Origin: Nostocaceae cyanobacterium | GTDB lineage: Bacteria > Cyanobacteriota > Cyanobacteriia > Cyanobacteriales > Nostocaceae | Direction of reading: 5' to 3' | Assembly (NCBI GenBank): GCA_035299225.1 | Contig: DATGXB010000028.1 | Coordinates: 1 to 61,151, forward strand | DNA length: 61,151 bases | In this document: positions 17,511-61,151 of the stretch, piece after piece | Numbering within the stretch: the first letter of the stretch is position 1 | Layout of the letters: the number at the start of each line of letters is the position of its first letter | Position numbers and translations under genes: made by a program | Notes under the pieces: model-generated | What the model was told of the DNA's origin: nothing | What the model saw: the letters and a program-made list of their open reading frames with translations, nothing else | Databases searched by the model: none

Positions 17511-17511
17511 G

Positions 17512-42862: not shown

Positions 42863-42866
42863 GTAA

Positions 42867-43565: not shown

Positions 43566-43733
43566 AACATTCTACTTTTCAAAAATTTAACAAGGATGTA
43601 AAACTTTCATTAGCTTTAGTCAGCAATATTATCACGATTGCTAAAATTACTACTGTATATTTACTAATCTTTAAATATTTCCTAATTTCTACCTCCAGCA
43701 AGAATCATTATTCAGTCATACCCTTTTTTACAG

Positions 43734-46700: not shown

Positions 46701-46979
46701 TGCATATAAACAGGCAAAAAAACTGATAACAAAATCTAATCCTGATGGATAAAGTAGTAACGCTCTATTACCTGGTGTAGAGATGGTTTGCAAATGGGCA
46801 GCAACATATTTTATTTTATCTTCTAGCTCTTGATAAGTTAAACAATCGGTTTGTATTTCTCCATCTTCGAGAAATATATAGGCTTTTTGGTGTGGTTGGT
46901 GTTTTGCCCTGTAGTGTAATAAATCTACAAGGGTTTTGTCCTGGAGAGGAAAATCAGCTTTAATTTGGGAGGTTATCAT
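43734..46979 (-). CDS. tridomain FAAL - acyl carrier protein - alpha-oxoamine synthase (serine-palmitoyltransferase/AONS-like, PLP-dependent)
   Basis: Residues 1-570 are a FAAL (YTSGSTGTPKGVIVSHKN). Residues ~585-665 are an ACP (AAYGLDSLTATQF, phosphopantetheine Ser). Residues ~700-1081 are an AONS/SPT-type aminotransferase class II (NYSSYNYLGLS, GHATNVTTIGHL, PLP-Lys motif GTLSKAFASCGG). Confidence 0.85.
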   Translation of the reverse strand: MITSQIKADFPLQDKTLVDLLHYRAKHQPHQKAYIFLEDGEIQTDCLTYQELEDKIKYVAAHLQTISTPGNRALLLYPSGLDFVISFFACLYAGIIAVPAYPPKRNQKLSRLQTIVHDAQANLLLTNTNIFQLIAQKEEIFTHLQWVLTDQINTKAEDFTHIKIEPNTTAFLQYTSGSTGTPKGVIVSHKNLVHNCQVIQHSYQESAEGIVLNWLPLYHDMGLVGGTLQPLLVGFPVILMSPMAFLQNPILWLKVISNYQVTVTVSPNFAYDLCVERFKKINPEQLTNFNLSSWQIAINGAEPIRAETITDFIDTFAPYGFNPSAFRPSYGMAETTLLITGAIKEKSPIIKIFDAKALEKNQVINSPTETQNTRKIVSCGYPVLGQTVIIVNPDSLTKCSSGEIGEIWVKGESVTQGYWQQAELTKQTFYAYLADTKEGAFLRTGDLGFWDDEAGLFVTGRIKDILIIRGRNYYPQDIEQTVETCHPALSFHSIAAFVVEIDGENRLFVACEVKRNYLRNIQVEEVVKAIRKAVLMEHDLQVYQVLLLKPGTLPKTSSGKIQRFLCRETFLAGNLPLIASEVIDISPKHHQDYALESIQDWICQWLAKKLNISIQSINQNESFAAYGLDSLTATQFIQDLQSYSGYLLNISTLQSFETIANLTQYLVKELSQDHNQPLAQIPSEYYQIESFPEYAQLQAKLTQIQTLEIPNPYFQIQESITRDCTQIQGQTLINYSSYNYLGLSGNPTVSAAAKAAIDSYGTSVCASRLASGERLLHQELEQELAEFIGVEDCIVYVSGHATNVTTIGHLFNSQDLIFYDAFSHNSILQGCALSGAKSVPFPHNDWQFLDKMLQNQRQNYRRVLIVIEGIYSMDGDIPDLPRFIEMKKRHKTFLMVDEAHSIGVLGENGRGIGEFSNIERNQVDLWMGTLSKAFASCGGYIAGSKALVNYLKYTAPGFVYSVGLSPANTAAALASLRLLKSEPERVKILQERSHQFLQLAQAQGWNTSTSQNSPIIPIVLGDSLNCIRLSHALFQAGINVQPMIYPAVPNDAARLRFFISCLHTETQINQTITALKKCYIS

Positions 46980-47200
46980 TATGACAGCTTCTTGAATAAT
47001 TGATATTACAAAACTTCATTCAATTTTTAGTTAAATATAGGCTATAGTTTACTGCTATAAACATTTTTTCGCCCGAATAGTGGTGAAATTCCTTAACTAA
47101 CAGGCTACCTCTGGTTACAATAGCATCCAAGTTCAAGCGGTTGATAATAAAATTTTTTGCCCCCTGCTGCCCTGCACTACCCTCCATTAATACTGCAAAT

Positions 47201-50200
47201 ATGCAACACTTAAAAACCTTGAAAAATAGAGAACCCATTGCGATAGTCGGTATTGGTTGCCGCTTTCCAGGTGGTGCGAATAACTCAGAAGCATTTTGGA
47301 ACTTGTTGATTAATGGTGTAGATGCGATCGCCGAAGTACCTGCAAGCCGTTGGAATATTAGTAACTTTTATCACCCTGACACCGCCAAGCCAGGGAAAAT
47401 CCGCACTCGTTGGGGTGGGTTTATTGAAGATATAGATCAATTTGACGCGCAATTTTTCGGCATTTCCCCCAGAGAAGCGGCTTGTATTGATCCCCAGCAA
47501 AGGTTATTGCTAGAGGTCGTTTGGGAAGCTTTGGAAGATGGGGGACAGGTAGCAGCAAAACTGGCTAATTCTCAAACTGGTGTATTTATCGGCATATCGG
47601 GTAGTGATTATCACCATATTCAACTCAATGTAAGCGATCGCCATTTAATCAATGCTTACACACATTTAGGGGGTGTCCACTGCATCGCTGCCAACCGGAT
47701 TTCCTATGTTTTAAATCTCCAGGGACCCAGTTTAGCAGTTGATACCGCTTGTTCTTCCTCCCTGGTAGCGGTTCATTTAGCTTGTCAAAGCATCTGGAAT
47801 GGGGAATCAAGCGCCGCTATTGCTGGGGGTGTGAATGCCATGCTCAAACCAGAAACCAGCATTGGATTTTCTAAAGCCTCCATGCTTTCACCAGATGGAC
47901 GTTGTTTTACTTTTGACGCACGCGCTAACGGATATGTCCGGGGTGAGGGTGTGGGTGTGGTATTTTTAAAGCCTTTATCTCAAGCTCAAGCTGACAAAGA
48001 TCCGATTTATGCGGTAATAAAAGCTACCGCTGTTAACCAAGATGGCCAAACCAACGGCATTACAGTTCCTAACGGCAAAGCCCAAGAAGCGGCTATTTTA
48101 TCAGCTTGTGAACAAGCGGGAATTTTACCAGAACAGGTGCAATACGTAGAAGCCCACGGCACAGGAACACCAGTAGGTGATCCCATTGAAACTAAAGCTT
48201 TAGGTCATGTTTTGGGGAAAAATCGGCCAGCAGGAGAACATTGTTTAATCGGTTCGGTAAAAACGAATATTGGGCATTTAGAGCCAGCTTCGGGCATTGC
48301 GGGTTTGATTAAAGTGGCTTTGGCGATTAAAAATGGTCAAATTCCGCCAAACTTAAATTTACAAACACCAAACCCTGAAATTCCTTTTACTGAGTTGCGG
48401 TTGCGTGTACCAACAAACCCAGAACCCTGGCCGGATGAAGAGAAGCCACGTATAGCCGGCATCAATTCTTTTGGTTTTGGGGGAACTAATGCTCATACGA
48501 TTTTAGCAGAAGTTCCTCAGCCTCCAGCCCCACTTCGACTTCGCTCTGTTACCACCGCTAAAAAATCCTATTTATTACCTTTATCAGCCCGCAGTGAAGC
48601 CGCACTGAAAGATTTAGCAGCAGCTTATAAAATATTTTTGACAAATACAAGTTTATCATTATCGGATATTTGTTATACTGCCACTTTCTACCGAGATCAT
48701 CATGACCACCGTTTAGCAGTGGTGGGAAGTTCTCCCGCAGAAATAACCGCTAACTTAGCAGGGTTTTTGGCTGAAGAAACCCGCTTGAGAATTTCTGAGG
48801 GGCGGGTTATTGTTGATAAGTTGCCTAAGTTGGCTTTTGTTTTCTCTGGAATGGGTCAACAATGGTGGGCAATGGGACGGAGTTTATTAGCAGAGGAATC
48901 AGTATTTCGAGAAAAAATACAACAGTGTGACCAATTATTGAGACAATATACCGACTGGTCACTGTGGGAGGAGTTAACAGCAAGTGAGGAAAGTTCGCGC
49001 ATTAATGAAACTCAAATCGCTCAATGTGCGATTTTTTCCGTACAAGTTGCCTTGGCCGCTTTATGGGAAAGTTGGGGTATTGTCCCAGCCGGCATAGTTG
49101 GCCATAGTGTGGGAGAAGTGGCAGCTGCTTATGTTGCGGGGGTGTTAAGTTTAGAAGATGCTGTATGTGTAATTTTCCACCGTAGCCGCTTACAAGCTAC
49201 CAGTGCCGGACAAGGAAAAATGTTAGCAGTGGGGTTATCTCTGGAAGAAGCTGAAAAGGTCATATCTGGGTATGAAGATAAAGTCGCTGTGGGTGCGGTT
49301 AACAGTCATAATTCTGTCACCCTCTCAGGAGATAGTCAGGCTTTAGGAGAAATTGCCCAAACTTTAGAACAGCAAGAGGTTTTTTGTCGTTTCCTCAAGG
49401 TAGAAGTTCCCTATCACAGCCCCTTAATGGAACATCTCAAGGCAGATTTATTACATTCTTTATCAGAAATTACACCAAAATCAGCCGCTATTCCTCTCTT
49501 TTCTACAGTCACAGGTCAGCAAGTTGCAGGAACGGAAATAGATGGAGCATACTGGGGGCAAAATATGCGAAATCCAGTATTATTTGCTGCCGCAGTAGAA
49601 GGAATGATGGAAGCTGAGTATAATTTGTTCTTAGAAATTGGTGCTCATCCAGTTTTAGCTAACTATATTTCTGAGTGTTTTACTCAAGCAAATCAAGCAG
49701 TAACGGTTTTACCTTCCCTGCGTCGGCAAGAATCTGATTTAGTAATAATGCTGGGGAGTTTTGGTAAACTTTATACTGTAGGATATGCAGTTGATTGGAA
49801 TCGGCTGGATTTAGATGGTCAGTTTGTGCGTGTTCCGTCCTATCCTTGGCAAAAAGAGCAATATTGGCATGAGTCAGAAGAATCACAACAGGCTAGAATA
49901 GGGGAAGGTTTGAGGCGATCGCTCTTAGGCAAACAAGTACATCCTTTATTGGGAAGTCGTCTAGAATCTGTACAATTGTTGTGGAATGCCACAATAGACC
50001 AAAGCAACCTCACCTATTTAAAAGACCATCGCATCCAGGGATCAGTAGTTTATCCCGGTGCAGGTTACATTGAAATGGTCTTGGCTACCGCTAAGGAGCT
50101 TTTTGGTGCAGGAAGTTGTATTTTAGAAGATGTAGAATTTTTGCAAGCTTTATTTTTACCCGATGAACCAATTACATTACAGTTAAGCGTAGAAGACCAA

Positions 50201-53200
50201 AATCAAAACAGTTTCAATATTCATAGTTTGGTTAAAGGTGAAAAACCTGCTTGGGTACGTCATGCTACAGGTAATTTACTCAAATTGCAAAATCATTTAC
50301 CTGAACCCATCATATTAAATGAGATTCGCGCTAATTGTCATCAAGAAATATCTCAACATCTTCTTTATCAACAATTCCAAGAAATCGGTTTAGAATATGG
50401 GGCAAATTTCCAAGGAATTGCAAAACTTTGGACTGGTGAAAAAGAAGCACTTGCTCAAATCAAATTACCCGAAAATCTCACAGCAGAATTACCAAATTAT
50501 CAGTTACATCCAACCTTATTAGATGCTTGTTTTCAAGTGCTAATTGGTACTGTTTCCACTAAACAAACTTATCTACCGATAAAAATTGAAAAATTCCGTT
50601 TTTACCAATCTCCTGGTTTACAAGTCTGGACTTATGCGCGGTTAGTGACAGAAAACACCAAGCAAATTACAGGAGATATACAAATAATAGATGCTAATGG
50701 TAATATATTAGTAGAAATTCAAGGTTTCTGCTGTCGTTCCCTTCCCCAAGCACAGGAATTTGTTACAAAACCAGAAAATTTACTTTATCAATATCAATGG
50801 GAATTAAAATCACGTCCTGACCAAAAATTAATTATCAATGCTGCTTATCTTCCTTCTCCTCACCAAATTACTGAAAATCTCCACAGTGAAGCTATGAGAT
50901 TAAGTCAGCAATTAGGACGTAAAATTTATTATGAACAAGTAAATTCCCAAGTAAATAATTTATCCGTTAGTTATATTATTCATGCCTTTCAACAATTAGG
51001 CTGGAAACCAGAATTACATCAACAAATTAACACAGATACCTTAATAGAACAGTTGGGTATTGCATCTCAGCATCGGCGTTTATTTGGTCGGTTGTTGGCA
51101 ATTTTAGAAAAAGAAAATATCTTAACATTAATATCTGATCAAAACTGGAAAATCAACCAAATTCCTGAAGTCAAAGAAATAAAACAACTTTGGCAAAATC
51201 TATTTACTCAATTTCCCGCATATCAAGCCGAACTGACTTTACAGCGACGTTGCGGTGAGAAATTAGCCCAAGTTTTACGCGGAGAAATTGACCCCTTACA
51301 ACTAATTTTTCCAGAAGGTTCGCTCACCGCATCAGAACAACTTTACCAAGATTCTCCTAATTATAAAATTTACAATATTTTAGTACAAAAAGCCGTTGCC
51401 TTAGCATTAGAACATTTACCAGCCGGTCGCAAAATCAGAATCTTAGAAATTGGTGCGGGTACTGGTGCGCTAACTTATTATATTTTGCCAAAATTACCAG
51501 CTAAACGCACAGAATATATATTTACAGATGTAACTCAAGTTTTTGTCAATTCTGCTCAACAAAAATTTAGCAATTATCCTTTTATTAATTATTCCGTTTT
51601 AGATATTGAAGCTGATCCAATTTCTCAAGGTTTTGATGCACATTCTTTTGATTTGATTGTAGCATCTGATGTACTGCACGCAACTACTAATTTACCTTCT
51701 ACCTTAGAAAATATTAAACAACTTTTAGCTTCCCAAGGATTATTAATATTTATAGAATTAACAAATGCACCCTATTGGGCAGATTTAGTATTTGGAATGC
51801 TTCAAGGTTGGTGGCTATTTGCAGATGAGAGAAAAATTAATCCTTTACTTTCAGCTTTACAATGGCAAGATTTACTGATAAAATGCGGATTTACAGAAGT
51901 TGATAGCCTTGCAGATAGCGACGGAACTTTTGCATCTGTGCATCAGGTATTTTTGGCTCAAACTCCCCAAATTAAAATACAAGGTAGAGACGTTCCATGG
52001 AACGTCTCTACAACCGAAAATATTCAAAACGTTTCTACAGCAGAAAATATTCAAAACATCTCTATATCTGAGAATATTAATTTACCAACTCAAAAAACGG
52101 GAACTTGGTTAATTTTTGGTGATAAATTTGGAGTTGGACAAAAGTTAGCTGAAAAATTGAAAGAAAATTCACAAACTCCCATTTTCATTTTACCCGGAAA
52201 TGAGTTTCAACAAATCGCTGATGATTGTTTCCAAATTCGTCCAGCACATCTAGAAGATATCCAAAGAATAGTACACACTAATATTACTGGTATTATTCAT
52301 CTTTGGAGTTTGGATATTCCAGCAGTTGCAGAAACAACTTTAACTGAACTAGAACAAGCTCAAAAATTAGGTTGTTTAACTATACTTTACCTAGTCCAAA
52401 CTTTAGAAAAAATCGGCATTTCCCCCCGCTTAGTATTAGTAACAGCCGACACTCAAGCTATAGGAGAAACTCCAGCTTTAGAAGTTGGTCAATCTCAATT
52501 ATGGGGTTTAGGACGGGTAATTGATAATGAGTTTCCTAATTTGCGTTGTTTAAGAATTGATATCAGTTCTAAAAAAGATATTCGAGAAATTAATGCGCTA
52601 TTTGCTGAACTGTGGTCAGAAGATAGAGAAGATGAAATTGTTTTCCGGGGTGAAGCGCGTTATGTCCATCGCTTAGTATCAGTAGTAGCAGGAGAAATTA
52701 ATTCAAAATCTGCAATTAAAAATCAACCATTTCGTTTAGAGATCACCCAACCAGGAATTTTAGACAACCTCACCTTAAAACCATTAGCAAGAAAGCAACC
52801 AGAAGCGGGAGAAGTGGAAATAGAGGTTTACGCTACAGGGTTAAACTTTAAAGATGTAGCAAAAGCAATGAACTTGCTGGCTGATGTGAACTTAGAAGGA
52901 AATTTTTCCGGGCGATCGCTTGGTTTGGAATGTGCTGGTAAAATTACAGCTATTGGTGCAGGTGTGACAAATTTTCAAATTGGTGATGAAGTTATAGCCA
53001 GCGCTCCTCACAGCTTCAGTTCCCACACTATCACAGATGCCCGTCTAGTTGTCCACAAACCCCAAAATATCAGTTTTGAAGAAGCTGCAACCATTCCGGC
53101 GGTTTTCCTCACTGCTTATTATGCCCTGCATTATTTGGGTAGAATAACTAAAGGGGAGAAAGTTCTGATTCATGCCGCAGCAGGTGGAGTTGGTCTAGCA

Positions 53201-55585
53201 GCTATCCAACTAGCGCAAAAAGCAGGTGCGGAAATATTTGCTACCGCAGGCAGTGCAGAAAAACGGGAATTACTCCAAGCTTTAGGTGTTAAATATGTCA
53301 TGGATTCCCGTAGTTTAGATTTTGCTGACCAGATCATGCAATACACCAATAATAAAGGTGTAGATATCGTCCTTAACTCTTTAGCTGGTGCAGCTATTCC
53401 CAAAAGTCTTTCTGTCTTAGCACCCTATGGACGGTTTATAGAAATTGGTAAACGGGATATTGATGATAATAATAAATTAGGTTTACGACCTTTTCAGAAA
53501 AACCTCTCATTTTTCGCGGTAGACTTAGACCGACTGTGGAAAGAACGCGCAGAGTTAGCCGGTTCTTTATTTGCTGAAGTAATGCAACTTTTCCGAGAAC
53601 AGACTTTACACCCCCTACCTCACCGAGTTTTCCCCATCTCTCAGGTAAAATCAGCTTTCCGTTACATGGCTCAAGCTAAACACATCGGTAAAGTTGTAAT
53701 TTCCTTGCAAAACCCTGATGTAATTATTCCCCCACCACAGGAAAAAATTACATTTCATCAACATGGTACTTATTTAATTACTGGCGGTTTAGGTGGATTT
53801 AGTTTAGCATTAGCTCAATGGTTAGTAGAACATGGTGCGGGAAATTTAGTGTTGATGGGCAGAAGTGGTCAAGTTTCCCCCGATGCTGAGTTAATTATTA
53901 ACAGTTTAAAAGCCGCCGGTACTAATGTTGTGGTAGCTAAAGCCGATGTTAGTCAAGCCGACCAAGTGGCACGGGTGCTTAAAGATATCAAAGAATCTCT
54001 ACCACCATTACGGGGAATATTCCATGCAGCTTTAGTATTAGATGATGCCATCTTACTGCAACTCAATCAAGAACGATTCCAAAAAGTAATTGCTCCCAAG
54101 GTTGATGGTGCTTGGAATTTACACACCCAAACTTTAGATATACCCTTAGATTGCTTTGTGCTATTTTCTTCTGTAGCCGCAACCATTGGTAATCCTGGTC
54201 AGGGTAATTATGTAGCTGCAAGTGTTTTTCTTGATACATTAGCACATTATCGCCGCAACTTAGGGTTAAAAGCCTTAAGCATTAACTGGGGAGTTATCGC
54301 TGATGTGGGTTATGCTGCTCAAAAGTCCCACATAGGAGAACATTTCCAACGTTTGGGACTAAAACCGCTACAGTCAAAACAAGCTTTACAGGTTTTAGAA
54401 AAATTGCTACAAGCGGACGCAGTACAAACCGCAGTAGCACCGGTAGATTGGTTACAATGGCATCAAGCTTATCCGGCTGGTATATCTCCCCGTTTTTCTT
54501 ACCTCACCAGCCAAGAAAGCTTAACTCAAGAAGCAAGTAACCCTAATATTGATACTGATTCTTTCCGTAATCTCCTATTAGCTGCAACAGACCGCGAACA
54601 GTTATTATCATCCCGTTTGCTGGAACAAGTTGCGAGGGTTTTGGGAACTTCTGTGGCTAAATTAGATACTTCCAAATCATTAACGAATTTGGGGTTAGAT
54701 TCCCTCATGGCCGTAGAACTGAGTAACCGCATCAAAAATGAACTAGAAGCCAAAATACCAGCCATGAAAATCATGCAGGGGTTGAATATTTCCCAACTGA
54801 CAAGCGAAATCATGGAACAGTTAACTGGAGCTGCTAAACAAAACGTTTCCGTGAAAACAGGTGACTGGTTAGTGTTCCCCCGACCAAATTCTGAAGCGCG
54901 TTTGCGGTTGTTTTGCTTCCCTTATATTAACGGTAGTAGTTCGGTATTTAGTCAATGGCCAGAGAAATTACCCCCAGATATTGAAGTTTGTGCTGTACAA
55001 TTACCAGGAGGAAGCGATCGCCTCAATGAACCACCCATCCAAACCTTAACTTCCCTCATAGAAACACTTGCAAATGCTCTCATCCCTAATTTAAACAAAC
55101 CCTTTGCCTTTTATGGTCACAGTTTAGGCGCATTAATCAGCTTTGAACTAGCTCGATATCTGCGTCAAAAAACCGGTAAAATCCCTGTTCATCTGTTTGT
55201 TGCTGCTTTACAAGCTCCCCAACTACCCCACCCTTACCCCTCTATATCTCACCTCTCCGACTCCCAAGCCTTAAAAAAAGCCTCTCTGTTGGACTTACCC
55301 GAAGCATTTGGACAAAATCCTGAGTTAATGCAGTTATTATTACCAGGTCTAAAAGCCGGAATTGCCATTTCTCAAAATTATACTTATGCACCAGATAAAC
55401 CCTTAGAATGTCCCATTACCGCTTTTGGTGGAAATCAAGATAAAGTCATCACTCAAGAGCATTTATTAGCTTGGGAAAAACAAACTTCTAGTACATTCAA
55501 TTTACAAATCTTCCCTGGTAATCATTTATTTCTACACACTGACCAAAACCTACTACTACCTTATTTAGCCACTTACTTGAATTAG
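47201..55585 (+). CDS. single-module, fully reducing type I polyketide synthase, domain order KS-AT-DH-cMT-ER-KR-ACP-TE
   Basis: The ORF opens at 47141 (MIIK), but the in-frame ATG at 47201 (MQHLKT) is the probable start. KS Cys motif DTACSSSL near 47750. AT GHSVGE near 49100. DH HxxxGxxxxP (HPLLGSRLE...YPGAGY) near 49945. SAM motif LEIGAGTGAL near 51445. ER VLIHAAAGGVGLAAIQLA near 53170. KR ITGGLGGFSLALAQW near 53770. ACP LGLDSLMAVEL near 54700. TE GHSLGALIS near 55120. Confidence 0.9.
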   Translation: MQHLKTLKNREPIAIVGIGCRFPGGANNSEAFWNLLINGVDAIAEVPASRWNISNFYHPDTAKPGKIRTRWGGFIEDIDQFDAQFFGISPREAACIDPQQRLLLEVVWEALEDGGQVAAKLANSQTGVFIGISGSDYHHIQLNVSDRHLINAYTHLGGVHCIAANRISYVLNLQGPSLAVDTACSSSLVAVHLACQSIWNGESSAAIAGGVNAMLKPETSIGFSKASMLSPDGRCFTFDARANGYVRGEGVGVVFLKPLSQAQADKDPIYAVIKATAVNQDGQTNGITVPNGKAQEAAILSACEQAGILPEQVQYVEAHGTGTPVGDPIETKALGHVLGKNRPAGEHCLIGSVKTNIGHLEPASGIAGLIKVALAIKNGQIPPNLNLQTPNPEIPFTELRLRVPTNPEPWPDEEKPRIAGINSFGFGGTNAHTILAEVPQPPAPLRLRSVTTAKKSYLLPLSARSEAALKDLAAAYKIFLTNTSLSLSDICYTATFYRDHHDHRLAVVGSSPAEITANLAGFLAEETRLRISEGRVIVDKLPKLAFVFSGMGQQWWAMGRSLLAEESVFREKIQQCDQLLRQYTDWSLWEELTASEESSRINETQIAQCAIFSVQVALAALWESWGIVPAGIVGHSVGEVAAAYVAGVLSLEDAVCVIFHRSRLQATSAGQGKMLAVGLSLEEAEKVISGYEDKVAVGAVNSHNSVTLSGDSQALGEIAQTLEQQEVFCRFLKVEVPYHSPLMEHLKADLLHSLSEITPKSAAIPLFSTVTGQQVAGTEIDGAYWGQNMRNPVLFAAAVEGMMEAEYNLFLEIGAHPVLANYISECFTQANQAVTVLPSLRRQESDLVIMLGSFGKLYTVGYAVDWNRLDLDGQFVRVPSYPWQKEQYWHESEESQQARIGEGLRRSLLGKQVHPLLGSRLESVQLLWNATIDQSNLTYLKDHRIQGSVVYPGAGYIEMVLATAKELFGAGSCILEDVEFLQALFLPDEPITLQLSVEDQNQNSFNIHSLVKGEKPAWVRHATGNLLKLQNHLPEPIILNEIRANCHQEISQHLLYQQFQEIGLEYGANFQGIAKLWTGEKEALAQIKLPENLTAELPNYQLHPTLLDACFQVLIGTVSTKQTYLPIKIEKFRFYQSPGLQVWTYARLVTENTKQITGDIQIIDANGNILVEIQGFCCRSLPQAQEFVTKPENLLYQYQWELKSRPDQKLIINAAYLPSPHQITENLHSEAMRLSQQLGRKIYYEQVNSQVNNLSVSYIIHAFQQLGWKPELHQQINTDTLIEQLGIASQHRRLFGRLLAILEKENILTLISDQNWKINQIPEVKEIKQLWQNLFTQFPAYQAELTLQRRCGEKLAQVLRGEIDPLQLIFPEGSLTASEQLYQDSPNYKIYNILVQKAVALALEHLPAGRKIRILEIGAGTGALTYYILPKLPAKRTEYIFTDVTQVFVNSAQQKFSNYPFINYSVLDIEADPISQGFDAHSFDLIVASDVLHATTNLPSTLENIKQLLASQGLLIFIELTNAPYWADLVFGMLQGWWLFADERKINPLLSALQWQDLLIKCGFTEVDSLADSDGTFASVHQVFLAQTPQIKIQGRDVPWNVSTTENIQNVSTAENIQNISISENINLPTQKTGTWLIFGDKFGVGQKLAEKLKENSQTPIFILPGNEFQQIADDCFQIRPAHLEDIQRIVHTNITGIIHLWSLDIPAVAETTLTELEQAQKLGCLTILYLVQTLEKIGISPRLVLVTADTQAIGETPALEVGQSQLWGLGRVIDNEFPNLRCLRIDISSKKDIREINALFAELWSEDREDEIVFRGEARYVHRLVSVVAGEINSKSAIKNQPFRLEITQPGILDNLTLKPLARKQPEAGEVEIEVYATGLNFKDVAKAMNLLADVNLEGNFSGRSLGLECAGKITAIGAGVTNFQIGDEVIASAPHSFSSHTITDARLVVHKPQNISFEEAATIPAVFLTAYYALHYLGRITKGEKVLIHAAAGGVGLAAIQLAQKAGAEIFATAGSAEKRELLQALGVKYVMDSRSLDFADQIMQYTNNKGVDIVLNSLAGAAIPKSLSVLAPYGRFIEIGKRDIDDNNKLGLRPFQKNLSFFAVDLDRLWKERAELAGSLFAEVMQLFREQTLHPLPHRVFPISQVKSAFRYMAQAKHIGKVVISLQNPDVIIPPPQEKITFHQHGTYLITGGLGGFSLALAQWLVEHGAGNLVLMGRSGQVSPDAELIINSLKAAGTNVVVAKADVSQADQVARVLKDIKESLPPLRGIFHAALVLDDAILLQLNQERFQKVIAPKVDGAWNLHTQTLDIPLDCFVLFSSVAATIGNPGQGNYVAASVFLDTLAHYRRNLGLKALSINWGVIADVGYAAQKSHIGEHFQRLGLKPLQSKQALQVLEKLLQADAVQTAVAPVDWLQWHQAYPAGISPRFSYLTSQESLTQEASNPNIDTDSFRNLLLAATDREQLLSSRLLEQVARVLGTSVAKLDTSKSLTNLGLDSLMAVELSNRIKNELEAKIPAMKIMQGLNISQLTSEIMEQLTGAAKQNVSVKTGDWLVFPRPNSEARLRLFCFPYINGSSSVFSQWPEKLPPDIEVCAVQLPGGSDRLNEPPIQTLTSLIETLANALIPNLNKPFAFYGHSLGALISFELARYLRQKTGKIPVHLFVAALQAPQLPHPYPSISHLSDSQALKKASLLDLPEAFGQNPELMQLLLPGLKAGIAISQNYTYAPDKPLECPITAFGGNQDKVITQEHLLAWEKQTSSTFNLQIFPGNHLFLHTDQNLLLPYLATYLN
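51984..52082 (+). repeat. 28-bp perfect palindrome (GTAGAGACGTTCCATGGAACGTCTCTAC) followed by three imperfect 27-bp tandem repeats, in-frame within the PKS cMT-ER linker
   Basis: Palindrome checked base by base (14+14, centred on CCATGG). The repeats encode VSTTENIQN / VSTAENIQN / ISISENINL. A near-copy of the palindrome is at 10277-10298. Confidence 0.85.
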
Positions 55586-55746
55586 TCAAAAAAAGAGGTA
55601 TTTAACGGCATAGGTAAAATTGTCTATTTTCTAATCTTGCTTATGTCTGGCGATAAAAAACTCCTATGAATCATCTATACATACATCCATAGGAGAAATT
55701 ATACAACTTTTTTATTTATTTTCCAAACCACATTTGATAAAATAAA

Positions 55747-57639
55747 CTATTCCACTGTCACAGATTTAGCCAAGTTTCTGGGCTGGTCTACGTCTAAACC
55801 ACGTCTAGCAGCGATATGATAAGCTAGTAGTTGCAGAGGTATAACTGTGAGAATTGGTGAGAGAATTTCCTCTACTTCTGCTACAGGAATAATATCATTA
55901 AAGATTTCTGCGGCTTCACCATGATTAACTGATGTGACACCAATTAAGCGAGAATCTCGTGCTTTGGCTTCTTGAGCGTTAGAGATGACTTTTTCGTAAA
56001 CTGTTCCCGGCATAGCGATCGCTACTACTGGTACTTTAGCATCTAACAAAGCAATGGGCCCGTGTTTCATTTCCCCTGCTGGGTATCCCTCCGCGTGAAT
56101 ATAGCTGATTTCTTTTAATTTCAAAGCCCCTTCTAAAGCGATAGGAAAATTAATTCCTCTCCCCACAAAAATGAAATCTTTGGTTTCCGCAAAGTCATGT
56201 ACTAAATTCTCAATATACTTTTCCTGAGTTTCTAAAATCGCTTCAATTTCTCCCGGAAGTTGGCGTAAACCTGCCAAAATTTCCGCTAATCTGCTATGAG
56301 ATATAGTCTGGCGACGATATGCTAAATCTAAAGCCAATGCATAAAAAGCCATTAATTGGGCAATAAAGGTTTTTGTGGCTGCAACACCAATTTCAATCCC
56401 CCCATGAGTATTAATAATATTCGCTACCATCTGTCCCAAAGTGCTTTCCGGGCGGTTGGTAATTCCTAATAGTCGCGCTTGATACTTAGCATCTTTCCCT
56501 TGTCGGCGCTCTTTTTCCATACTCAAAGCCGCTAAAGTATCCGCAGTTTCCCCAGATTGAGTTACCCCAATAGTTAAAGTATTAGCAGTCATGGGGGATG
56601 GTGCATAGCGAAATTCAGAAGCGTATTGTACTTGAGTGGGGACAAGGGCTAATTGTTCAATTAAGTATTTTCCCACTAAAGCAGCGTGCCAGCTAGTACC
56701 ACAGGCGACAATTTGGATTTGTTCTAAATCTGCGTAAAATTCTGCTGGTAAACCTAAATTTACAGGTGATTTATCAGTTTGCGTACTTCCTTCTGGGGAA
56801 AAATAAGCCTCTAAACAAGCCCGGACTACTCCCGGTTGCTCATAGATTTCCTTGAGCATAAAATGTTTGAATCCCTGCTTTTCCACCATAACGGGATTCC
56901 AGTTCAAGGTACGGGGTTGCTTTTTCAAGCGGTGGCCGCTAAAGCTGTAAACCTCAACCCCCAAAGGAGTCAAACGAGCAATTTCCCCATTTTCTAGGGG
57001 CAATACTGCGCGGGTATGGGAGACAATCGCGGGGGTATCGGAAGCACAGAAAAACTCACCCTGACCGAAACCAATCACCAACGGGGCTTGCTGGCGCACT
57101 ACAATTAACTCATCAGGGTAATCTGCGGAGATTATGGCGATCGCATAACCCCCTTCTAGCTGATTCACCGCTTCCCGCACGGCTGTATATAGTTGGTATT
57201 CTGGCTGGACTTGTTCTTTAACTGACTTTAAACATTCAGCAATTAAATTTGGGATAACTTCCGTATCTGTATCTGAGCGAAATTCATACCCCTTAGCTTT
57301 TAAACTTTCTTTTAAATCCCGATAATTTTCGATAATTCCATTTTGCACCACAGCTATCCGCATAGCTGTATCCAGATGGGGATGAGCATTATATTCTTCT
57401 GGTTTACCATGAGTTGCCCAGCGAGTATGACCGATACCGATTTGGGCATGACTTTCCATTTGTTCCAGTTTAGAACGCAGGTTATGCAGCTTACCCTTAG
57501 CCCGGATACACTGCACCTTATCCTCCCAAATCGTCGCTACTCCAGCCGAATCATACCCTCTGTACTCCAGTTTTTCCAGTCCTGCCAAAAGAATATTTGT
57601 CGCCGTTTGCGTGCCTATATATCCTACAATTCCGCACAT
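55747..57639 (-). CDS. glmS: glutamine--fructose-6-phosphate aminotransferase GlmS
   Basis: N-terminal MCGIVGYIG (Ntn Cys), two SIS domains, and C-terminal ...VDQPRNLAKSVTVE. 630 aa. Confidence 0.95.
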   Translation of the reverse strand: MCGIVGYIGTQTATNILLAGLEKLEYRGYDSAGVATIWEDKVQCIRAKGKLHNLRSKLEQMESHAQIGIGHTRWATHGKPEEYNAHPHLDTAMRIAVVQNGIIENYRDLKESLKAKGYEFRSDTDTEVIPNLIAECLKSVKEQVQPEYQLYTAVREAVNQLEGGYAIAIISADYPDELIVVRQQAPLVIGFGQGEFFCASDTPAIVSHTRAVLPLENGEIARLTPLGVEVYSFSGHRLKKQPRTLNWNPVMVEKQGFKHFMLKEIYEQPGVVRACLEAYFSPEGSTQTDKSPVNLGLPAEFYADLEQIQIVACGTSWHAALVGKYLIEQLALVPTQVQYASEFRYAPSPMTANTLTIGVTQSGETADTLAALSMEKERRQGKDAKYQARLLGITNRPESTLGQMVANIINTHGGIEIGVAATKTFIAQLMAFYALALDLAYRRQTISHSRLAEILAGLRQLPGEIEAILETQEKYIENLVHDFAETKDFIFVGRGINFPIALEGALKLKEISYIHAEGYPAGEMKHGPIALLDAKVPVVAIAMPGTVYEKVISNAQEAKARDSRLIGVTSVNHGEAAEIFNDIIPVAEVEEILSPILTVIPLQLLAYHIAARRGLDVDQPRNLAKSVTVE

Positions 57640-57734
57640 TGCTCACACCATTCTGCTAGAGGTTGATTAAATCTAAGCATAGTTGATTAGTCATAGAGGG
57701 GTCATTCTAGCAGACAATTGGCAGTTTAGTACAA

Positions 57735-57790
57735 GGAGGAAGAAGGCAGGCGTTCCGTGAGCGAAGTCGAACGGGGCAGGAGGCAGGAGG
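57735..57790. repeat. AGGCAGG-type STR interrupted by a 24-bp element (57751-57774, CGTTCCGTGAGCGAAGTCGAACGG) related to the 25-bp dispersed element
   Basis: Shares the core GCGMAGTCGAA with the copies at 23239, 38787, about 21686 and 23771 (the last on the opposite strand). Confidence 0.6.
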
Positions 57791-57996
57791 TAAGAAAGCT
57801 CAATATATAAGCCTTGTTTAGTTTTTTTACTGATTTTCGTCAATCTGCACCAGTTAATGTGGAATTAAATTAGGTGGTTAAATTTCGGCTGATTGTGTTT
57901 AGAGGTGGTATTTACCAATTCATAGAAGTTAAATTTGTGACATCACACAAAGAGCAAATTTATTTTGTGCAATTTATTCTCAAATTTCAGTAACAC

Positions 57997-60030
57997 CTAA
58001 TTTTTCTGAATTGGTAACAGTAAAGTTTGTTCTATTTCCTCACGCACTGAACGAGTAAGATGACACTCTTTGAGACAATTTACTAGAAAATTATTTGCTA
58101 AATAATAATCCCCTAGTAGCAAGTATTGTTCATCATTAAACTGCCAGTTATGACTGATATTCCGATGTTCAATTATCATTTTTCGGAGTTTATCAGTCCA
58201 GTTTTTACCATTTATTTTCCACCATATTTTAAAATTATATATATTCTCTTTAGAAATATCTGGTAGCTGTTCTTTGAGTGTTTGTAACTTCAAATATAAT
58301 ACATTATCAAATTTGTATACAAGTTCCAATAAATCATTGATAGACAGAAATTTTTCAAATTCAACATTTCGTTTGATGTGGTCATCAAACTTGTAGATAA
58401 AGCGGAGAAATTTGTAAATTTTTAACTTGAGTCTTAAATCTAAGGAGAGACAGTCACTGATTACGATTTTGGGATCAAACTTATAGAAGATATTTAAATC
58501 TAAGTCAAGACAAAGTTCTAAATAAAAAGCTCTAATAGCAGCAATTTTATAAGGTGATTTAACAGAACTAGATTTTTGCTCAAGCCATTTAAGAAAATTC
58601 TGAATTTTTTCATCATAAGCTACAATTTTATCAATTTCTTGTTTCATCAATAAAACTAGCTCATCTGCCTCTTTCAACATTCCTCCAATTAATAAAAAAA
58701 CCTCTTGCCACCGTGGTTCTAAAATGTGGCCAACTAATTTTTTTAGTTCCTGATATTGATTACGACTAGTATAAATACTTCTAGCTGTAAAATATTCGTG
58801 AAAAGTTAGATGAGAGAAAGAGTAAATATTTCTAGCTCGTTCTACAAATAAGCCATGCTGTGATTCAATAGATTTTAACACTGCTCTACTATCTACTAGT
58901 AATGCTTCCGGGTCAGTTTGTGCATCTGGTAAATTTTGAATATAATTACTAATATATTCCTCAAGTTGTCTTTGTTTAAAAAAGTAATTTCCTTCCTGAA
59001 AAGTTGTAAAAGCAATTTCGCTTAGTAAATCCTCTTTGCGCTTGGTAGGTAATTTTTTATAAACTTGATCACGTTCAATACTGCGTGTTCCATCCCATTT
59101 CCTGAGTAGTATATCTAAACCTTGTTCGTAAAGGTCAGCACGATTTTCAGGAAAATCCACCGATTCAGAAAACAGCCAGCATAAAAATGTCAATAGTAAA
59201 GGATTCGTTGATAATTCTTTAATTCTTTCATTTTCTTCTATTTTTGTAATAAATTGTTTAGCCTTTTCAGGCTTTTTATTTTGAAACCATTTAGTTACAA
59301 AATTCTTAATTTGCTTATCATCAAAATCTGCCATTTCCACATCTTTAAAATGTTCAAAGACATATTCTTTGGCAGCAATGCGACAAGTAATTATAAAATA
59401 ATTAGTATCATATTTATTGGTCAATGCCTGAATCTCTCTTAAAACTCGTTGATCATCTACTTCTCTGACTTCATCCAAACCATCTAGTAAAATTATAGCT
59501 TGACCATTTTGTAATATTTTTATAATGTTATCTTGCTCAGATATATCATTAACAGAAAATTCATTATAAATATACTGTAATAACTTAGGTTGATTTTCTG
59601 CTTCTGCAAATGCTTTCAGGGTGATAAAAATGGGTAAACGATTAGTGAAAAATTTACCGGAGTTACATTGAATAGCAATTCTTTTTAAAAAAGTGGTTTT
59701 ACCTGCTCCTGGTTTACCAAATATCATTAATTTTGGGTATCTTTCAACAGCTTCTAAACCTGGTACTCTTGCTTCTCTAATAGGATTTAAACAAAAAGGA
59801 TTAAAATCTTCTCTTTTCGATACTTCGGAAATTTGTGCTATGCTTGGAGGTCTTCGGCTGGTAATATTTTCTAAAATATTTACATCAGTATAAATATCAT
59901 CTAAGCCAATTTCTTGAGTCATATCTAAAACTTTCATTGTGCCGCATTGTTTTTTAATATAATCCCTCACTTTTTGACGCATTTCTTGAACTAAAGCATC
60001 AATATCAATTTGGTTTTCTGATTTTACCAA
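57997..60030 (-). CDS. NACHT-family NTPase (STAND), probably 5'-truncated by IS insertion
   Basis: Walker A GKPGAGKTTFLKRIA, Walker B AIILLDGLDEV, and TCR sensor-1-like motif IITCRIAA. The ORF has only a TTG start. The reading frame stays open 150 nt further upstream with no start codon, up to IS-derived sequence. Confidence 0.7.
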   Translation of the reverse strand: MVKSENQIDIDALVQEMRQKVRDYIKKQCGTMKVLDMTQEIGLDDIYTDVNILENITSRRPPSIAQISEVSKREDFNPFCLNPIREARVPGLEAVERYPKLMIFGKPGAGKTTFLKRIAIQCNSGKFFTNRLPIFITLKAFAEAENQPKLLQYIYNEFSVNDISEQDNIIKILQNGQAIILLDGLDEVREVDDQRVLREIQALTNKYDTNYFIITCRIAAKEYVFEHFKDVEMADFDDKQIKNFVTKWFQNKKPEKAKQFITKIEENERIKELSTNPLLLTFLCWLFSESVDFPENRADLYEQGLDILLRKWDGTRSIERDQVYKKLPTKRKEDLLSEIAFTTFQEGNYFFKQRQLEEYISNYIQNLPDAQTDPEALLVDSRAVLKSIESQHGLFVERARNIYSFSHLTFHEYFTARSIYTSRNQYQELKKLVGHILEPRWQEVFLLIGGMLKEADELVLLMKQEIDKIVAYDEKIQNFLKWLEQKSSSVKSPYKIAAIRAFYLELCLDLDLNIFYKFDPKIVISDCLSLDLRLKLKIYKFLRFIYKFDDHIKRNVEFEKFLSINDLLELVYKFDNVLYLKLQTLKEQLPDISKENIYNFKIWWKINGKNWTDKLRKMIIEHRNISHNWQFNDEQYLLLGDYYLANNFLVNCLKECHLTRSVREEIEQTLLLPIQKN

Positions 60031-60139
60031 ATCGGATTTTTCCGGTTCATTATTTGCTAAATCATCTATATTAGGATAATTACTTAAATCTGCTATTTCT
60101 TCCCAAGATTCAAGTTTAAGTTCTTGACCTCTGTACAGG

Positions 60140-61151
60140 ACAAAAAATAGAAAAAAGCTTGCAAAGGGGACAGGAAAGGGGTTTCATAGAAAGTTACCAC
60201 ACAATCAAAGAAACCCCTATGAACCAGATTAACCTATTACGAGAAACACTGAAACCCCATTTAGGATGGCATGGAGCGCGATTAAGTTTCTTAGCATTGT
60301 TCTTAATAGCATTATTAAGAGTAAAAACAGTCAACTTGGTAGAATTGTCCACCGGATTTCGGAATTGTGCAAAAAAAGAATCGAATTATAAACGTTTACA
60401 ACGCTTTTTCCGAGATTTTGATGTGAACTATGCAGTCATAGCAAAAATGATTGTAGCTTTGATGAATATCCCCCAACCTTGGGTATTGAGTATTGACCGT
60501 ACAGACTGGTCATTCGGTCAAACTCACTGGAATATCTTGATGTTAGGAGTAGTACATAATGGTGTTGCCTACCCTCTAGTTTGGGAGATATTGGATAAAA
60601 AGGGTAATTCCAACAGTGATGAGAGAATGAACTTATTAGACCGTTTTCAACAAATATTTCCAGATGTACAAGTTGCTAATGTGACCGCAGACCGAGAATT
60701 TGTTGGTGCAGAATGGTTAAGCTATTTGCTGTTAGAGCCGAATATCTCCTTTAGAATCAGGATTCGCCATAGTGACCTGATTCATGATGGACAAAAAGCA
60801 CTTCCTGGTTCGGTGATCTTTGCTCATCTCAAAGTTGGTGAAAGTCAGGTTTTATCTGGTCGTCGTTGGGTTTGGGGTCGATTAGTCTATGTTGCTGGTC
60901 TACGCCTAGCTGATGGCAAGTTATTAATCGTGATTTCTCCTGATTCACCAGAAACGATGATTGCTGACTATGGTCGTCGTTGGGGTATTGAAACTTTATT
61001 TGGAATGCTAAAAACTCGTGGTTTTTGCTTGGAATCCACTCATTTTATTGATGCCGAACGACTGAGTAAGTTGTTAGCTCTTCTGGCATTAGCTATGTGT
61101 TGGGCTGTCAAAACTGGAGAATGGTTACATCAACATCGACCCATCAAAATT
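60140..61151 (+). mobile_element. IS4-family insertion sequence (left end approximate, right end outside window)
   Basis: The transposase ORF plus about 80 bp of upstream sequence. The left boundary is inferred from where the NACHT-frame upstream sequence turns IS-like (about 60135-60160). The inverted repeat cannot be defined without the other end. Confidence 0.55.
60219..61151 (+). CDS. IS4-family DDE transposase (3' partial, runs off window)
   Basis: ATG at 60219 with an uninterrupted 311-codon frame to the window end. C-terminal signature YGRRWGIETLFGMLKTRGFCLE is typical of IS4/IS5-type transposases. A DDE-domain-like pattern precedes it. Confidence 0.7.
   Translation, partial: MNQINLLRETLKPHLGWHGARLSFLALFLIALLRVKTVNLVELSTGFRNCAKKESNYKRLQRFFRDFDVNYAVIAKMIVALMNIPQPWVLSIDRTDWSFGQTHWNILMLGVVHNGVAYPLVWEILDKKGNSNSDERMNLLDRFQQIFPDVQVANVTADREFVGAEWLSYLLLEPNISFRIRIRHSDLIHDGQKALPGSVIFAHLKVGESQVLSGRRWVWGRLVYVAGLRLADGKLLIVISPDSPETMIADYGRRWGIETLFGMLKTRGFCLESTHFIDAERLSKLLALLALAMCWAVKTGEWLHQHRPIKI

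What the first reader, a model, noticed from the sequence alone, without database searches (positions are those of the whole stretch)
57997..61151. NACHT (STAND) NTPase gene apparently decapitated by an IS4-family insertion
The NACHT ORF has only a TTG start at 60030. Its reading frame stays open for a further ~150 nt upstream (to 60183), encoding hydrophilic sequence (...LKLESWEEIADLSNYPNIDDLANNEPEKSDLVKSENQ...) with no ATG, GTG or TTG. It then runs into sequence belonging to an IS4-family element whose transposase begins at 60219. This suggests the original N-terminal domain now lies beyond the IS. In bacterial NACHT/AVAST-like defence proteins that domain is often an effector. The C-terminal ~300 aa after the NACHT module has no obvious WD40 or TPR repeats. 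IS inactivation of a defence-type STAND gene bears on the strain's phage-resistance repertoire.
Basis: partly seen in the sequence, partly recalled or inferred. Interest (0 to 1): 0.5.

Follow-up and report, generated by a model that had tools for sequence, protein, structure and literature searches.

The report
NACHT gene split by an IS4 element
A 1,153-bp IS4-family jumping gene has landed in codon 64 of a cyanobacterial HTH-NACHT-NCH2 (NLR-like) gene and split it in two; both halves were found in the same genome, so this is an ordinary, apparently recent, insertional gene disruption.

Summary
The NACHT ORF (minus strand, 57997-60030, TTG start) has an open frame upstream to 60183. Only 60031-60128 of that is native gene. 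It aligns colinearly with residues 65-101 of the closest intact homologue. 60129-60183 is the left end of the IS.

Seven other copies place the IS terminus exactly at 60129. The element is 1,153 bp, with 20-bp inverted repeats and a 9-bp target duplication. The contig ends inside it, at IS nucleotide 1023.

The insertion cuts the conserved Cys codon of an "F..IC.EL.L.WEEIA" helix. The missing head was recovered as an 87-aa "hypothetical protein" (HLP88971.1, locus tag VK184_10325) from the same MAG. It consists of 64 native residues, then Q-E from the duplicated target, then 21 residues read from the IS right end. Only a 9-bp duplication reproduces that junction peptide. The rebuilt 773-aa protein aligns end to end with a 775-aa homologue.

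The lost domain is a small XRE/Cro-type helix-turn-helix, not an enzymatic effector. The C-terminal domain is the known NCH2 domain. A role in phage defence is untested. This is an ordinary event of low interest.

The parts
57997..60128 (-). The 3' part of the disrupted HTH-NACHT-NCH2 gene. It holds native coding sequence for residues 65-773 of the reconstructed protein, plus 2 nt of the cut Cys64 codon and the stop codon at 57997-57999.
   Evidence: Aligns from QELKLESW... to the C-terminus with more than 100 homologues of 750-800 aa. Pfam finds NACHT and NCH2. The reconstruction aligns 1-773 against P0002 1-775 at 67% identity.
57997..60030 (-). The ORF as annotated in GenBank (HLP87505.1, 677 aa). 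It begins at TTG, the first available start codon, which is not the native start.
   Evidence: Of the 102 homologues where the VLDM[TS] anchor was located, all but P0001 itself and the fragment P0015 have at least 101 residues before it, against 33 here.
60031..60128 (-). Native coding sequence stranded upstream of the TTG. It encodes the last helix of the HTH domain (QELKLESWEEIADL) and the acidic linker.
   Evidence: Colinear BLASTP matches to P0002 residues 65-101 and P0051 residues 66-104; alignment A1.
60120..60128 (.). Left copy of the 9-bp target-site duplication: GTTCTTGAC on the + strand, GTCAAGAAC on the gene strand, encoding (C)-Q-E.
   Evidence: A 9-bp TSD is seen in copies L003, L010 and L007. 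Q-E is present on both halves of the gene. Only a 9-bp duplication yields P0241's junction peptide CQEPKYRTKIVE.
60129..61151 (+). IS4-family insertion sequence, nucleotides 1-1023 of 1153. It is cut off by the end of the contig.
   Evidence: Sequence conservation among 8 copies starts sharply at 60129. All complete copies are 1153 bp. The window copy is 90% identical in DNA to L002.
60129..60148 (+). Left terminal inverted repeat, CTCTGTACAGGACAAAAAAT.
   Evidence: Matches the reverse complement of the right end in full copies (CTAAGTACAGGACAAAAAAT) at 18 of 20 positions.
60219..61151 (+). Transposase ORF, residues 1-311 of 353 (HLP87506.1, annotated 'partial').
   Evidence: Pfam DDE_Tnp_1. 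Full-length relatives are 353 aa. P0122, 93% identical, scores 286 bits on NCBIfam NF033591 IS4 against a cutoff of 152.
60969..61013 (+). Y-(2)-R-(3)-E-(6)-K signature of IS4-family transposases (YGRRWGIETLFGMLK). The candidate catalytic D residues lie in SIDRTDW (60489-60509) and TADREF (60684-60701).
   Evidence: Read directly from the translation. That this motif defines the IS4 family is from my own knowledge.
59692..59718 (-). Walker A / P-loop, GKPGAGKTT.
   Evidence: Invariant in alignment A1; coordinates.
59467..59490 (-). Walker B with the NACHT signature D-G-L-D-E (LLDGLDEV).
   Evidence: Invariant in A1; coordinates. The D[GAS]hDE signature is described in bioRxiv 10.1101/2022.07.19.500537.
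58012..58290 (-). NCH2 (NACHT C-terminal helical domain 2).
   Evidence: Pfam PF22727, 108.2 bits against a cutoff of 27, residues 632-724 of the 728-aa translation.

Best explanation
A 1,153-bp IS4-family insertion sequence transposed into codon 64 of a 773-codon gene. The gene encodes an XRE-type HTH, a NACHT NTPase and an NCH2 domain. The IS has 20-bp terminal inverted repeats and a single 353-aa DDE transposase whose TAG stop is the last 3 nt of the element. The insertion duplicated 9 bp of target (GTCAAGAAC on the gene strand).

The insertion separates the promoter, the start codon and the first 64 codons (all but the last helix of the HTH) from the rest of the gene. The head now lies on another contig of the same MAG. 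There it is annotated as an 87-aa hypothetical protein that reads 21 codons into the IS right end. The body (709 codons) remains in this window. It has no native start codon and no recognisable promoter. The annotated TTG at 60030 is only the first start codon a gene caller can find.

The most likely consequence is loss of function of the full-length protein. The event appears recent, or the body is still under selection, because the body shows no stop codon, frameshift or loss of an invariant residue. The contig ends inside the IS because the element is repeated and breaks the assembly.

Shown: the IS boundary, the IS anatomy, homology of the stranded upstream peptide, the existence and sequence of the head fragment in the same assembly, and the 9-bp duplication. 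Inferred: loss of expression or function, recency, and the biological role of the gene.
For: 1. IS terminus. Conservation among 8 independent copies begins exactly at window 60129, and the flanks are unrelated. The right end and the 1153-bp length are defined in the same way. A 9-bp TSD is present in 3 of the 5 copies that have both flanks.
2. IS4 identity. Pfam DDE_Tnp_1, NCBIfam NF033591 at 286 bits against a cutoff of 152 for the 93%-identical P0122, and the YREK motif in the window.
3. The stranded upstream peptide is homologous to residues 65-101 of P0002 and 66-104 of P0051. The break falls in the Cys codon of the F..IC.EL.L.WEEIA motif; that Cys is invariant in the N-terminal-domain alignments A4-A6. 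The remaining '?gt' fits TGT.
4. Homologues are 750-800 aa. Among those where the anchor motif was located, none but a contig-edge fragment starts near the TTG.
5. A search with the predicted head (P0002 residues 1-64 plus the predicted read-through into the IS right end) returned one protein out of 5.8 billion. It is P0241 / HLP88971.1, 87 aa...DKFREIC-QE-PKYRTKIVEREEIHYDSSLNQ. Its tail matches the reverse-complement translation of the IS right end of L002 at 19 of 21 residues.
6. Same genome. P0241 carries locus tag VK184_10325, window proteins carry VK184_02535 and VK184_02670, and all accessions fall in one HLP87xxx-88xxx block.
7. Only a 9-bp duplication gives the junction CQEPKYRTKIVE. 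Duplications of 8 or 10 bp give other peptides.
8. The reconstructed 773-aa protein aligns 1-773 against 1-775 of P0002 at 67% identity.
9. The promoter scan found no sigma-70-like site on the minus strand between 60030 and 60400.
Against: - The DNA of the 15,191-bp contig carrying the head could not be fetched. The right junction is therefore shown at protein level only.
- No reads were available, so I cannot tell whether the insertion is fixed or polymorphic in the sampled population.
- Two related IS copies (L002, L004) lack a TSD, so not every copy sits in a simple insertion.
- Cyanobacterial promoters are poorly captured by a sigma-70 consensus scan. Transcription of the headless body from within or near the IS left end is not excluded.
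- No near-identical intact allele (empty site) was found in any collection. The closest homologue is 68% identical.
Confidence: 0.93

Rival explanations
1. The 677-aa TTG-initiated ORF is the native gene, the open frame upstream is fortuitous, and the IS merely sits in the upstream intergenic region.
For: Stop-free runs of 33 codons occur by chance about 5% of the time at this composition. GenBank annotates the 677-aa ORF as a complete protein.
Against: The upstream peptide is colinearly homologous to the corresponding segment of intact homologues. Apart from one contig-edge fragment, none of the 102 homologues where the anchor motif was located starts near the TTG. The matching head with the duplicated Q-E and an IS-derived tail exists in the same MAG.
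Confidence: 0.01
2. The junction is an assembly artefact: a chimeric join between a NACHT gene and an unrelated IS copy in a metagenome assembly.
For: The sequence is a MAG contig that ends inside a repeat. No reads could be examined. IS copies are common causes of mis-joins.
Against: The join falls on the exact first nucleotide of the IS, as defined by 7 other copies, and not inside shared sequence. The reciprocal junction exists on another contig at the exact last nucleotide of the IS. It carries a 9-bp duplication of the target, which is the footprint of transposition. A k-mer chimera would not create either feature.
Confidence: 0.02
3. The insertion is real but not a null. The gene is functionally split. 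The 87-aa HTH fragment and a headless NACHT-NCH2 protein are both made, the latter from the TTG at 60030 and driven by read-out from the IS left end or a cryptic promoter. This would alter rather than abolish the function, for example by uncoupling sensing from DNA binding.
For: Both ORFs are intact. The 709-codon body has no stop, frameshift or lost invariant residue, although the expected stop frequency in this composition is 8.6% per random codon. A TTG start exists. Cyanobacterial promoters often escape consensus scans.
Against: No promoter-like site was found on the minus strand between 60030 and 60400. No Shine-Dalgarno-like sequence is evident before the TTG (direct reading). An intact body is equally well explained by a recent insertion. 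No expression data exist.
Confidence: 0.1

Closest known systems
IS4-family insertion sequences (DDE transposase with a YREK motif, e.g. IS4, IS10, IS50, and the NCBIfam NF033591 group common in cyanobacteria)
   Same: - A single transposase ORF that fills the element.
- Pfam DDE_Tnp_1 and NCBIfam NF033591 matches.
- The Y-(2)-R-(3)-E-(6)-K signature.
- Roughly 20-bp terminal inverted repeats that start with CT.
- A 9-bp target duplication.
- Related copies at 66-72% DNA identity on plasmids of Chroococcidiopsis, Pseudanabaena, Leptolyngbya and Calothrix, where annotated features are called IS4 family transposase or transposase.
   Different: It is compact at 1,153 bp, and the transposase stop codon TAG forms the last three nucleotides of the element. 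I could not check whether this element has an ISfinder name.
Bacterial NACHT (NLR-related) proteins, bNACHT, of Kibby et al. (bioRxiv 10.1101/2022.07.19.500537); clade 6 proteins bNACHT25 and bNACHT32 with an NCH1 C-terminal domain (PMC12169576)
   Same: A central NACHT module with Walker A and the D-G-L-D-E Walker B signature, and a helical C-terminal domain of the NCH class. The family is strongly expanded in filamentous cyanobacteria.
   Different: - The tested bNACHTs carry N-terminal nuclease or other effector domains, or none. This protein carries a small XRE-type HTH.
- Its C-terminal domain is NCH2, not NCH1 or SNaCT.
- I found no experimental test of this architecture in the papers I read.
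- The PADLOC and NCBIfam anti-phage models match only the NTPase core and score far below their cutoffs.
STAND-type transcription regulators with a DNA-binding domain fused to the NTPase (MalT, AfsR, GutR)
   Same: A DNA-binding HTH is fused to a STAND NTPase with a C-terminal putative sensor. This suggests signal-dependent oligomerisation that controls DNA binding. These regulators are cited as non-immune STANDs in PMC13581612.
   Different: They belong to different STAND clades (MalT/SARP, not NACHT) and use different HTH types. No target operator or regulated neighbouring gene is conserved next to homologues of this protein.

Membership tests
IS4 family insertion sequence | DDE transposase of the IS4 type (Pfam DDE_Tnp_1; NCBIfam IS4 equivalog) | tested here: met
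   Window ORF: PF01609, 41.5 bits against a cutoff of 23. P0122, the 93%-identical full-length relative: NF033591, 286 bits against a cutoff of 152.
IS4 family insertion sequence | Y-(2)-R-(3)-E-(6)-K signature around the catalytic E | tested here: met
   YGRRWGIETLFGMLK at 60969-61013. That this motif defines the family is from my own knowledge.
IS4 family insertion sequence | Terminal inverted repeats bounding the element | tested here: met
   IRL CTCTGTACAGGACAAAAAAT is at 60129-60148. IRR (reverse complement) CTAAGTACAGGACAAAAAAT is seen in full copies; 18 of 20 positions match. The right end of this particular copy lies beyond the window and is seen only through P0241's tail.
IS4 family insertion sequence | Direct target-site duplication of fixed length | tested here: met
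   9 bp in L003, L010 and L007. For this copy, the 9 bp GTCAAGAAC is inferred from Q-E on both halves and from the junction peptide. The right junction is evidenced at protein level only.
NACHT clade of STAND NTPases | NACHT domain profile match with Walker A and the D[GAS]hDE Walker B signature | tested here: met
   PF05729, 63.1 bits against a cutoff of 26.7. GKPGAGKTT and LLDGLDEV are present. The signature is as described in 10.1101/2022.07.19.500537.
NACHT clade of STAND NTPases | NCH2 C-terminal helical domain (defines this sub-architecture) | tested here: met
   PF22727, 108.2 bits against a cutoff of 27, covering profile positions 4-96 of 96.
XRE / Cro-C1 type helix-turn-helix domain (the missing N-terminus) | Profile match to HTH_3 / HTH_26 or to solved XRE-family HTH structures | tested here: inconclusive
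   - Sister N-termini pass Pfam gathering scores: HTH_3 at 28.5 and 25.5 bits against 23, HTH_26 at 32 bits against 22.
- A family profile that includes the reconstructed sequence hits 3tyr (E = 1.9e-5), HipB (4e-4) and 434 repressor (9e-3).
- P0241 and the reconstructed N-terminus give no Pfam hit on their own, and P0002 scores 16.3 bits, below the cutoff.
- Foldseek hits of the AF2 model (pLDDT 73) are nearly all XRE HTH proteins, but all have E of at least 0.7.
Validated anti-phage STAND systems (bNACHT, Avs, EruA, PADLOC families) | Full-length match to a curated defence-system model | tested here: not met
   NCBIfam EruA scores 53.5 bits against a cutoff of 1000 and matches the NTPase core only. 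PADLOC PDC-S60 is a candidate system and matches only partially: residues 152-471 against profile positions 391-698 of 1027.
Validated anti-phage STAND systems (bNACHT, Avs, EruA, PADLOC families) | N-terminal enzymatic or adaptor effector domain (nuclease, TIR, protease, EAD) | tested here: not met
   The N-terminus is a roughly 64-residue HTH-like domain. Among the top 120 homologues, TIR-family Pfam domains (PF01582, PF13676) are listed only for P0079.
Validated anti-phage STAND systems (bNACHT, Avs, EruA, PADLOC families) | Demonstrated protection against phage | not testable with these tools
   This needs an experiment. None of the papers read reported one for an HTH-NACHT-NCH2 protein.

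The most novel reading that the evidence does not exclude
HTH-NACHT-NCH2 proteins may be NLR-like transcription switches. The family had more than 6,000 members in the search, is expanded in filamentous cyanobacteria, and carries interchangeable N-terminal DNA-binding modules and a hypervariable region before NCH2. The IS-split allele here might not be a dead gene. It could be a functional split that leaves a free 87-aa operator-binding HTH and a headless sensor NTPase, so that IS insertion acts as a way to re-wire or silence a potentially autotoxic immune regulator.
Probability: 0.07. Interest if true: 0.45.

Novelty: new member of a known kind. Interest (0 to 1): 0.15.

Why it matters
The finding matters little beyond annotation. 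Three GenBank entries (HLP87505.1 'NACHT domain-containing NTPase', HLP87506.1 'IS4 family transposase, partial' and HLP88971.1 'hypothetical protein') are really one disrupted gene plus one IS. The two contigs (61,151 bp and 15,191 bp) can be scaffolded across it. The result also removes one NLR-like gene from this strain's functional repertoire.

Two points are mildly useful more generally. The architecture lost here has a DNA-binding head rather than an effector, which argues against automatically reading cyanobacterial NACHT genes as suicide-effector defence genes. Also, predicting the read-through peptide of an IS junction proved an effective way to find the other half of a split gene in protein databases.

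Tried and rejected
2. Exact right-junction pattern GTCCTGTACTTAGGTTCTTGAC: no match in genome contigs or metagenome contigs.
3. Gene-side pattern GATTCAAGTTTAAGTTCTTGAC in metagenome contigs: no match.
4. The search for related loci with the NACHT body in genome contigs found only the 68% homologue and two distant ones. This MAG is therefore not in that collection, and no empty-site allele is available.
5. The look-up of encoding contigs for P0001, for glmS of the window and for P0241 found nothing on record. No DNA was obtained for the partner contig.
6. P0242, a Logan transposase in the same 90% cluster, turned out to be a different copy (89% DNA identity) with unrelated flanks.
7. tblastn of homologue N-termini against the window found no head fragment elsewhere in the window, so a local inversion is ruled out.
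8. The neighbourhoods of four homologues were inspected for a conserved partner or target gene. None was found; contexts vary and include helicases, an integrase, a pentapeptide-repeat protein and a CyanoTRADDas_TM protein.
9. The promoter and terminator scan gave nothing above the shuffled background and nothing on the minus strand upstream of the TTG.
10. An Rfam search of 55500-61151 gave no hit.
11. A Foldseek search with the AF2 model of the head gave no significant hit. It is used only as weak support.
12. An effector-type N-terminus was considered and rejected.
Full report
OBSERVATION. The minus-strand ORF 57997..60030 (677 aa, TTG start) is present. Translating further upstream shows the frame open to 60183, closed by TGA at 60184-60186. 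No ATG, GTG or TTG occurs before the TTG at 60030. On the plus strand an ORF starts at ATG 60219 and runs off the window end after 311 codons. Pfam identifies the first protein as NACHT (63 bits) with a C-terminal NCH2 domain (108 bits). It identifies the second as a DDE_Tnp_1 transposase. At the composition of this 30% GC gene, 33 stop-free codons arise by chance about 5% of the time, so the open frame alone proves little.

IS THE UPSTREAM FRAME REAL CODING SEQUENCE? A search of 5.8 billion proteins returned more than 6,000 relatives. The best 120 are almost all 750-800 aa, about 100 residues longer than the TTG model. In an alignment with 12 of them, the window sequence matches from QELKLESWEEIADL onward. 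The 19 residues before it (NPFPVPFASFFLFFVLYRG) match nothing. In pairwise BLASTP, the 42 residues encoded by 60001-60126 align colinearly with residues 65-101 of P0002 (E = 7e-6) and 66-104 of P0051 (E = 2e-7). The VLDM[TS] anchor motif was located in 102 of the top 120 homologues. It lies at least 101 residues from the N-terminus in all of them except P0001, which is this ORF, and P0015, a fragment.

WHERE THE IS BEGINS. The partial transposase has full-length 353-aa relatives. I fetched the DNA of several copies. Aligning eight left ends shows unrelated flanks that switch to near-identity at one position, window 60129, where CTCTGTACAGGACAAAAAAT begins. The right ends switch in the same way after ...ATTTTT(T)GTCCTGTACTTAG. 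All complete copies are 1,153 bp. The two ends form 20-bp inverted repeats matching at 18 of 20 positions. Three of the five copies with both flanks (L003, L010, L007) have perfect 9-bp direct repeats. The transposase stop codon TAG is the last three nucleotides of the element.

The window holds IS nucleotides 1-1023, and its copy is 90% identical to L002. The window is the entire 61,151-bp contig, so the contig simply ends inside the repeat. IS4-family membership is supported by three results: NCBIfam NF033591 (286 bits against a cutoff of 152, for P0122, which is 93% identical), the YGRRWGIETLFGMLK (YREK) motif at 60969-61013, and related IS copies on cyanobacterial plasmids, where annotated features are called IS4 family transposase or transposase.

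WHERE THE GENE IS CUT. Native gene sequence ends at 60128. On the gene strand it reads ?GT CAA GAA CTT AAA..., that is, ?-Q-E-L-K. Homologues have an invariant Cys exactly there, in the motif F..IC.EL.L.WEEIA. The remaining 'GT' fits TGT. The stretch 60129-60183 of the 'open upstream frame' is IS sequence.

FINDING THE MISSING HEAD. Scans for the predicted right junction found nothing in either collection, and a scan for an empty site found nothing in metagenome contigs. The genome itself is not in genome contigs. I then predicted what the head ORF should encode. It should carry about 64 N-terminal residues like those of P0002. These should be followed by Q-E from the duplicated target, and then by a read-through into the reverse complement of the IS right end (PKYRTKIVERKETHYDSSLNQ, taken from L002).

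Searching with that 87-aa construct returned a single protein. It is P0241 (HLP88971.1), also 87 aa, named 'hypothetical protein VK184_10325 [Nostocaceae cyanobacterium]', on a 15,191-bp contig. Its sequence is MSKKKLTICATPEGLQKAEQALKRLKDGKKESLVIALQGLVGKSTIIKFFKREPISVDKFREIC-QE-PKYRTKIVEREEIHYDSSLNQ.

Hypothetical proteins encoded in the window carry locus tags VK184_02535 and VK184_02670. All accessions fall in one HLP87xxx-88xxx block. The head is therefore in the same assembly.

Simulating the junction shows that only a 9-bp duplication (GTCAAGAAC) yields CQEPKYRTKIVE. Duplications of 8 or 10 bp give different peptides. Joining P0241 residues 1-66 to the window translation from Leu (60120) gives a 773-aa protein that aligns 1-773 against 1-775 of P0002 at 67% identity. 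This is a simple insertion with nothing deleted. The right junction is shown at protein level only, because I could not obtain that contig's DNA.

WHAT WAS CUT OFF. The head is not an enzymatic effector.
- At least 74 of the top 120 homologues carry the same roughly 60-residue N-terminal module.
- Three of four tested representatives pass Pfam gathering scores for HTH_3 or HTH_26, the Cro/C1 type. The match extends through the ...IC..L.L.W..I helix.
- A profile of 24 such N-termini, including the reconstructed one, hits solved XRE-family HTH proteins: 3tyr at 1.9e-5, HipB at 4e-4 and 434 repressor at 9e-3. The best alignment (3tyr) runs through the same last helix.
- The P0002/P0241 subtype falls below Pfam thresholds on its own.
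- An AlphaFold model of P0241 (pLDDT 73) shows helices at 12-24, 30-36, 43-50 and 57-65. It gives only non-significant Foldseek hits, though almost all of them are XRE HTH proteins.

I therefore call the domain an XRE-type HTH by family-level homology and mark membership of this particular sequence as inconclusive. The IS cuts inside this domain, in front of its last helix. Other homologues carry a LuxR/sigma-70 region 4-like module (21 of 120) or another module in the same position. This suggests that DNA binding is the usual output of this architecture.

CONSEQUENCE (inferred). The body has lost its promoter, its start codon and most of its HTH. No sigma-70-like promoter is predicted on the minus strand between the TTG and the IS interior. 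No start codon precedes the TTG. The simplest reading is a null allele. The body retains every invariant residue, including Walker A GKPGAGKTT and Walker B LLDGLDEV. It also has 709 stop-free codons, although random sequence of this composition would hit a stop at 8.6% of codons. The insertion is therefore recent, or the fragment is still under selection. I give about 10% to expression of a headless NACHT-NCH2 protein.

A mis-assembly is very unlikely. Both junctions fall on the exact terminal nucleotides of the IS and carry the 9-bp duplication.

COMPARISON WITH WHAT IS KNOWN. The element is a typical, compact IS4-family IS. The gene belongs to the bacterial NACHT (NLR-related) proteins surveyed by Kibby et al. 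That paper defines the NCH domains, lists HTH among the fused domains, and notes the large paralogue numbers in cyanobacteria (10.1101/2022.07.19.500537). The tested clade 6 proteins, bNACHT25 and bNACHT32, have NCH1 domains and N-terminal nucleases (PMC12169576). I found no experiment on an HTH-NACHT-NCH2 protein.

Defence-system models match only the NTPase core and score far below threshold: EruA at 53 bits against a cutoff of 1000, and PDC-S60 only partially. Homologues have no conserved neighbour. Functionally, the nearest analogy is to STAND transcription regulators such as MalT, AfsR and GutR (cited in PMC13581612), but these belong to other clades. The 'defence gene' label is thus a plausible guess, not a finding.

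VERDICT. Two sub-claims are corrected: the head is an HTH rather than an effector, and a defence role is unproven. This is an ordinary insertional disruption of one member of a very large paralogous family in a MAG. Interest is low.

Noticed in passing
L002:2910-4062, L003:1910-3062, L010:1120-2272 (full IS copies); window 60129-61151: In every complete 1,153-bp copy, the transposase stop codon TAG is the last three nucleotides of the element, inside the right inverted repeat. The ORF therefore ends exactly at the IS terminus.
   Followed up: partly
L002:2895-2909 vs 4063-4077; L004:30-44 vs 1198-1212: Two related IS copies have no matching 9-bp direct repeat at their flanks, unlike L003, L010 and L007. 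This could reflect IS-mediated rearrangement or deletion, or chimeric short-read unitigs.
   Followed up: no
window 57997-60128 vs 53000-57999: The NACHT gene is 30% GC, against 35-45% (mostly 41-45%) across the adjacent glmS and PKS genes and 38% for the whole window. The drop is sharp at about 58000. This is consistent with a horizontally acquired or otherwise atypical gene.
   Followed up: partly
Homologues P0002-P0120: The same NACHT-NCH2 chassis carries interchangeable N-terminal modules. At least 74 of 120 have an XRE-HTH-like module, 21 have a LuxR/sigma-70 region 4-like module (MLP.DFL...AFR.R.S..Y.KF) and 6 have a 'MATQFNF..TVFL.RFD' module with no Pfam hit. One has TIR domains (P0079).
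   Followed up: partly
Alignment A1 columns ~680-800 (window residues encoded at about 58290-58560, minus strand): Between the NACHT module and NCH2, homologues have a hypervariable, low-complexity region of degenerate L-(D/S)-L-x-R-type repeats whose length differs greatly between proteins. The window protein has a short, lysine- and phenylalanine-rich version. It may be a rapidly diversifying sensor segment.
   Followed up: no
L001:149-448 (minus strand), upstream of P0002 at 847-3174: The closest homologue has a divergently oriented 99-aa gene with a CyanoTRADDas_TM domain (PF20712) immediately upstream. Three other homologues do not, so it is not a conserved partner.
   Followed up: partly
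window 16110-20291 and 38836-55585: The contig carries a 2,814-aa type I polyketide synthase (47141-55585). It also carries genes that GenBank annotates as a glycosyltransferase (38836-39999) and the ABC transporter permease DevC (19125-20291). The combination is reminiscent of a heterocyst-glycolipid-type gene cluster. I did not analyse it.
   Followed up: no
window 61151 (contig end) and the 15,191-bp contig carrying VK184_10325: The two contigs of this MAG can be scaffolded through the IS. The window covers IS nucleotides 1-1023. The partner contig must contain at least the last roughly 66 nt, leaving a gap of at most about 64 nt.
   Followed up: partly
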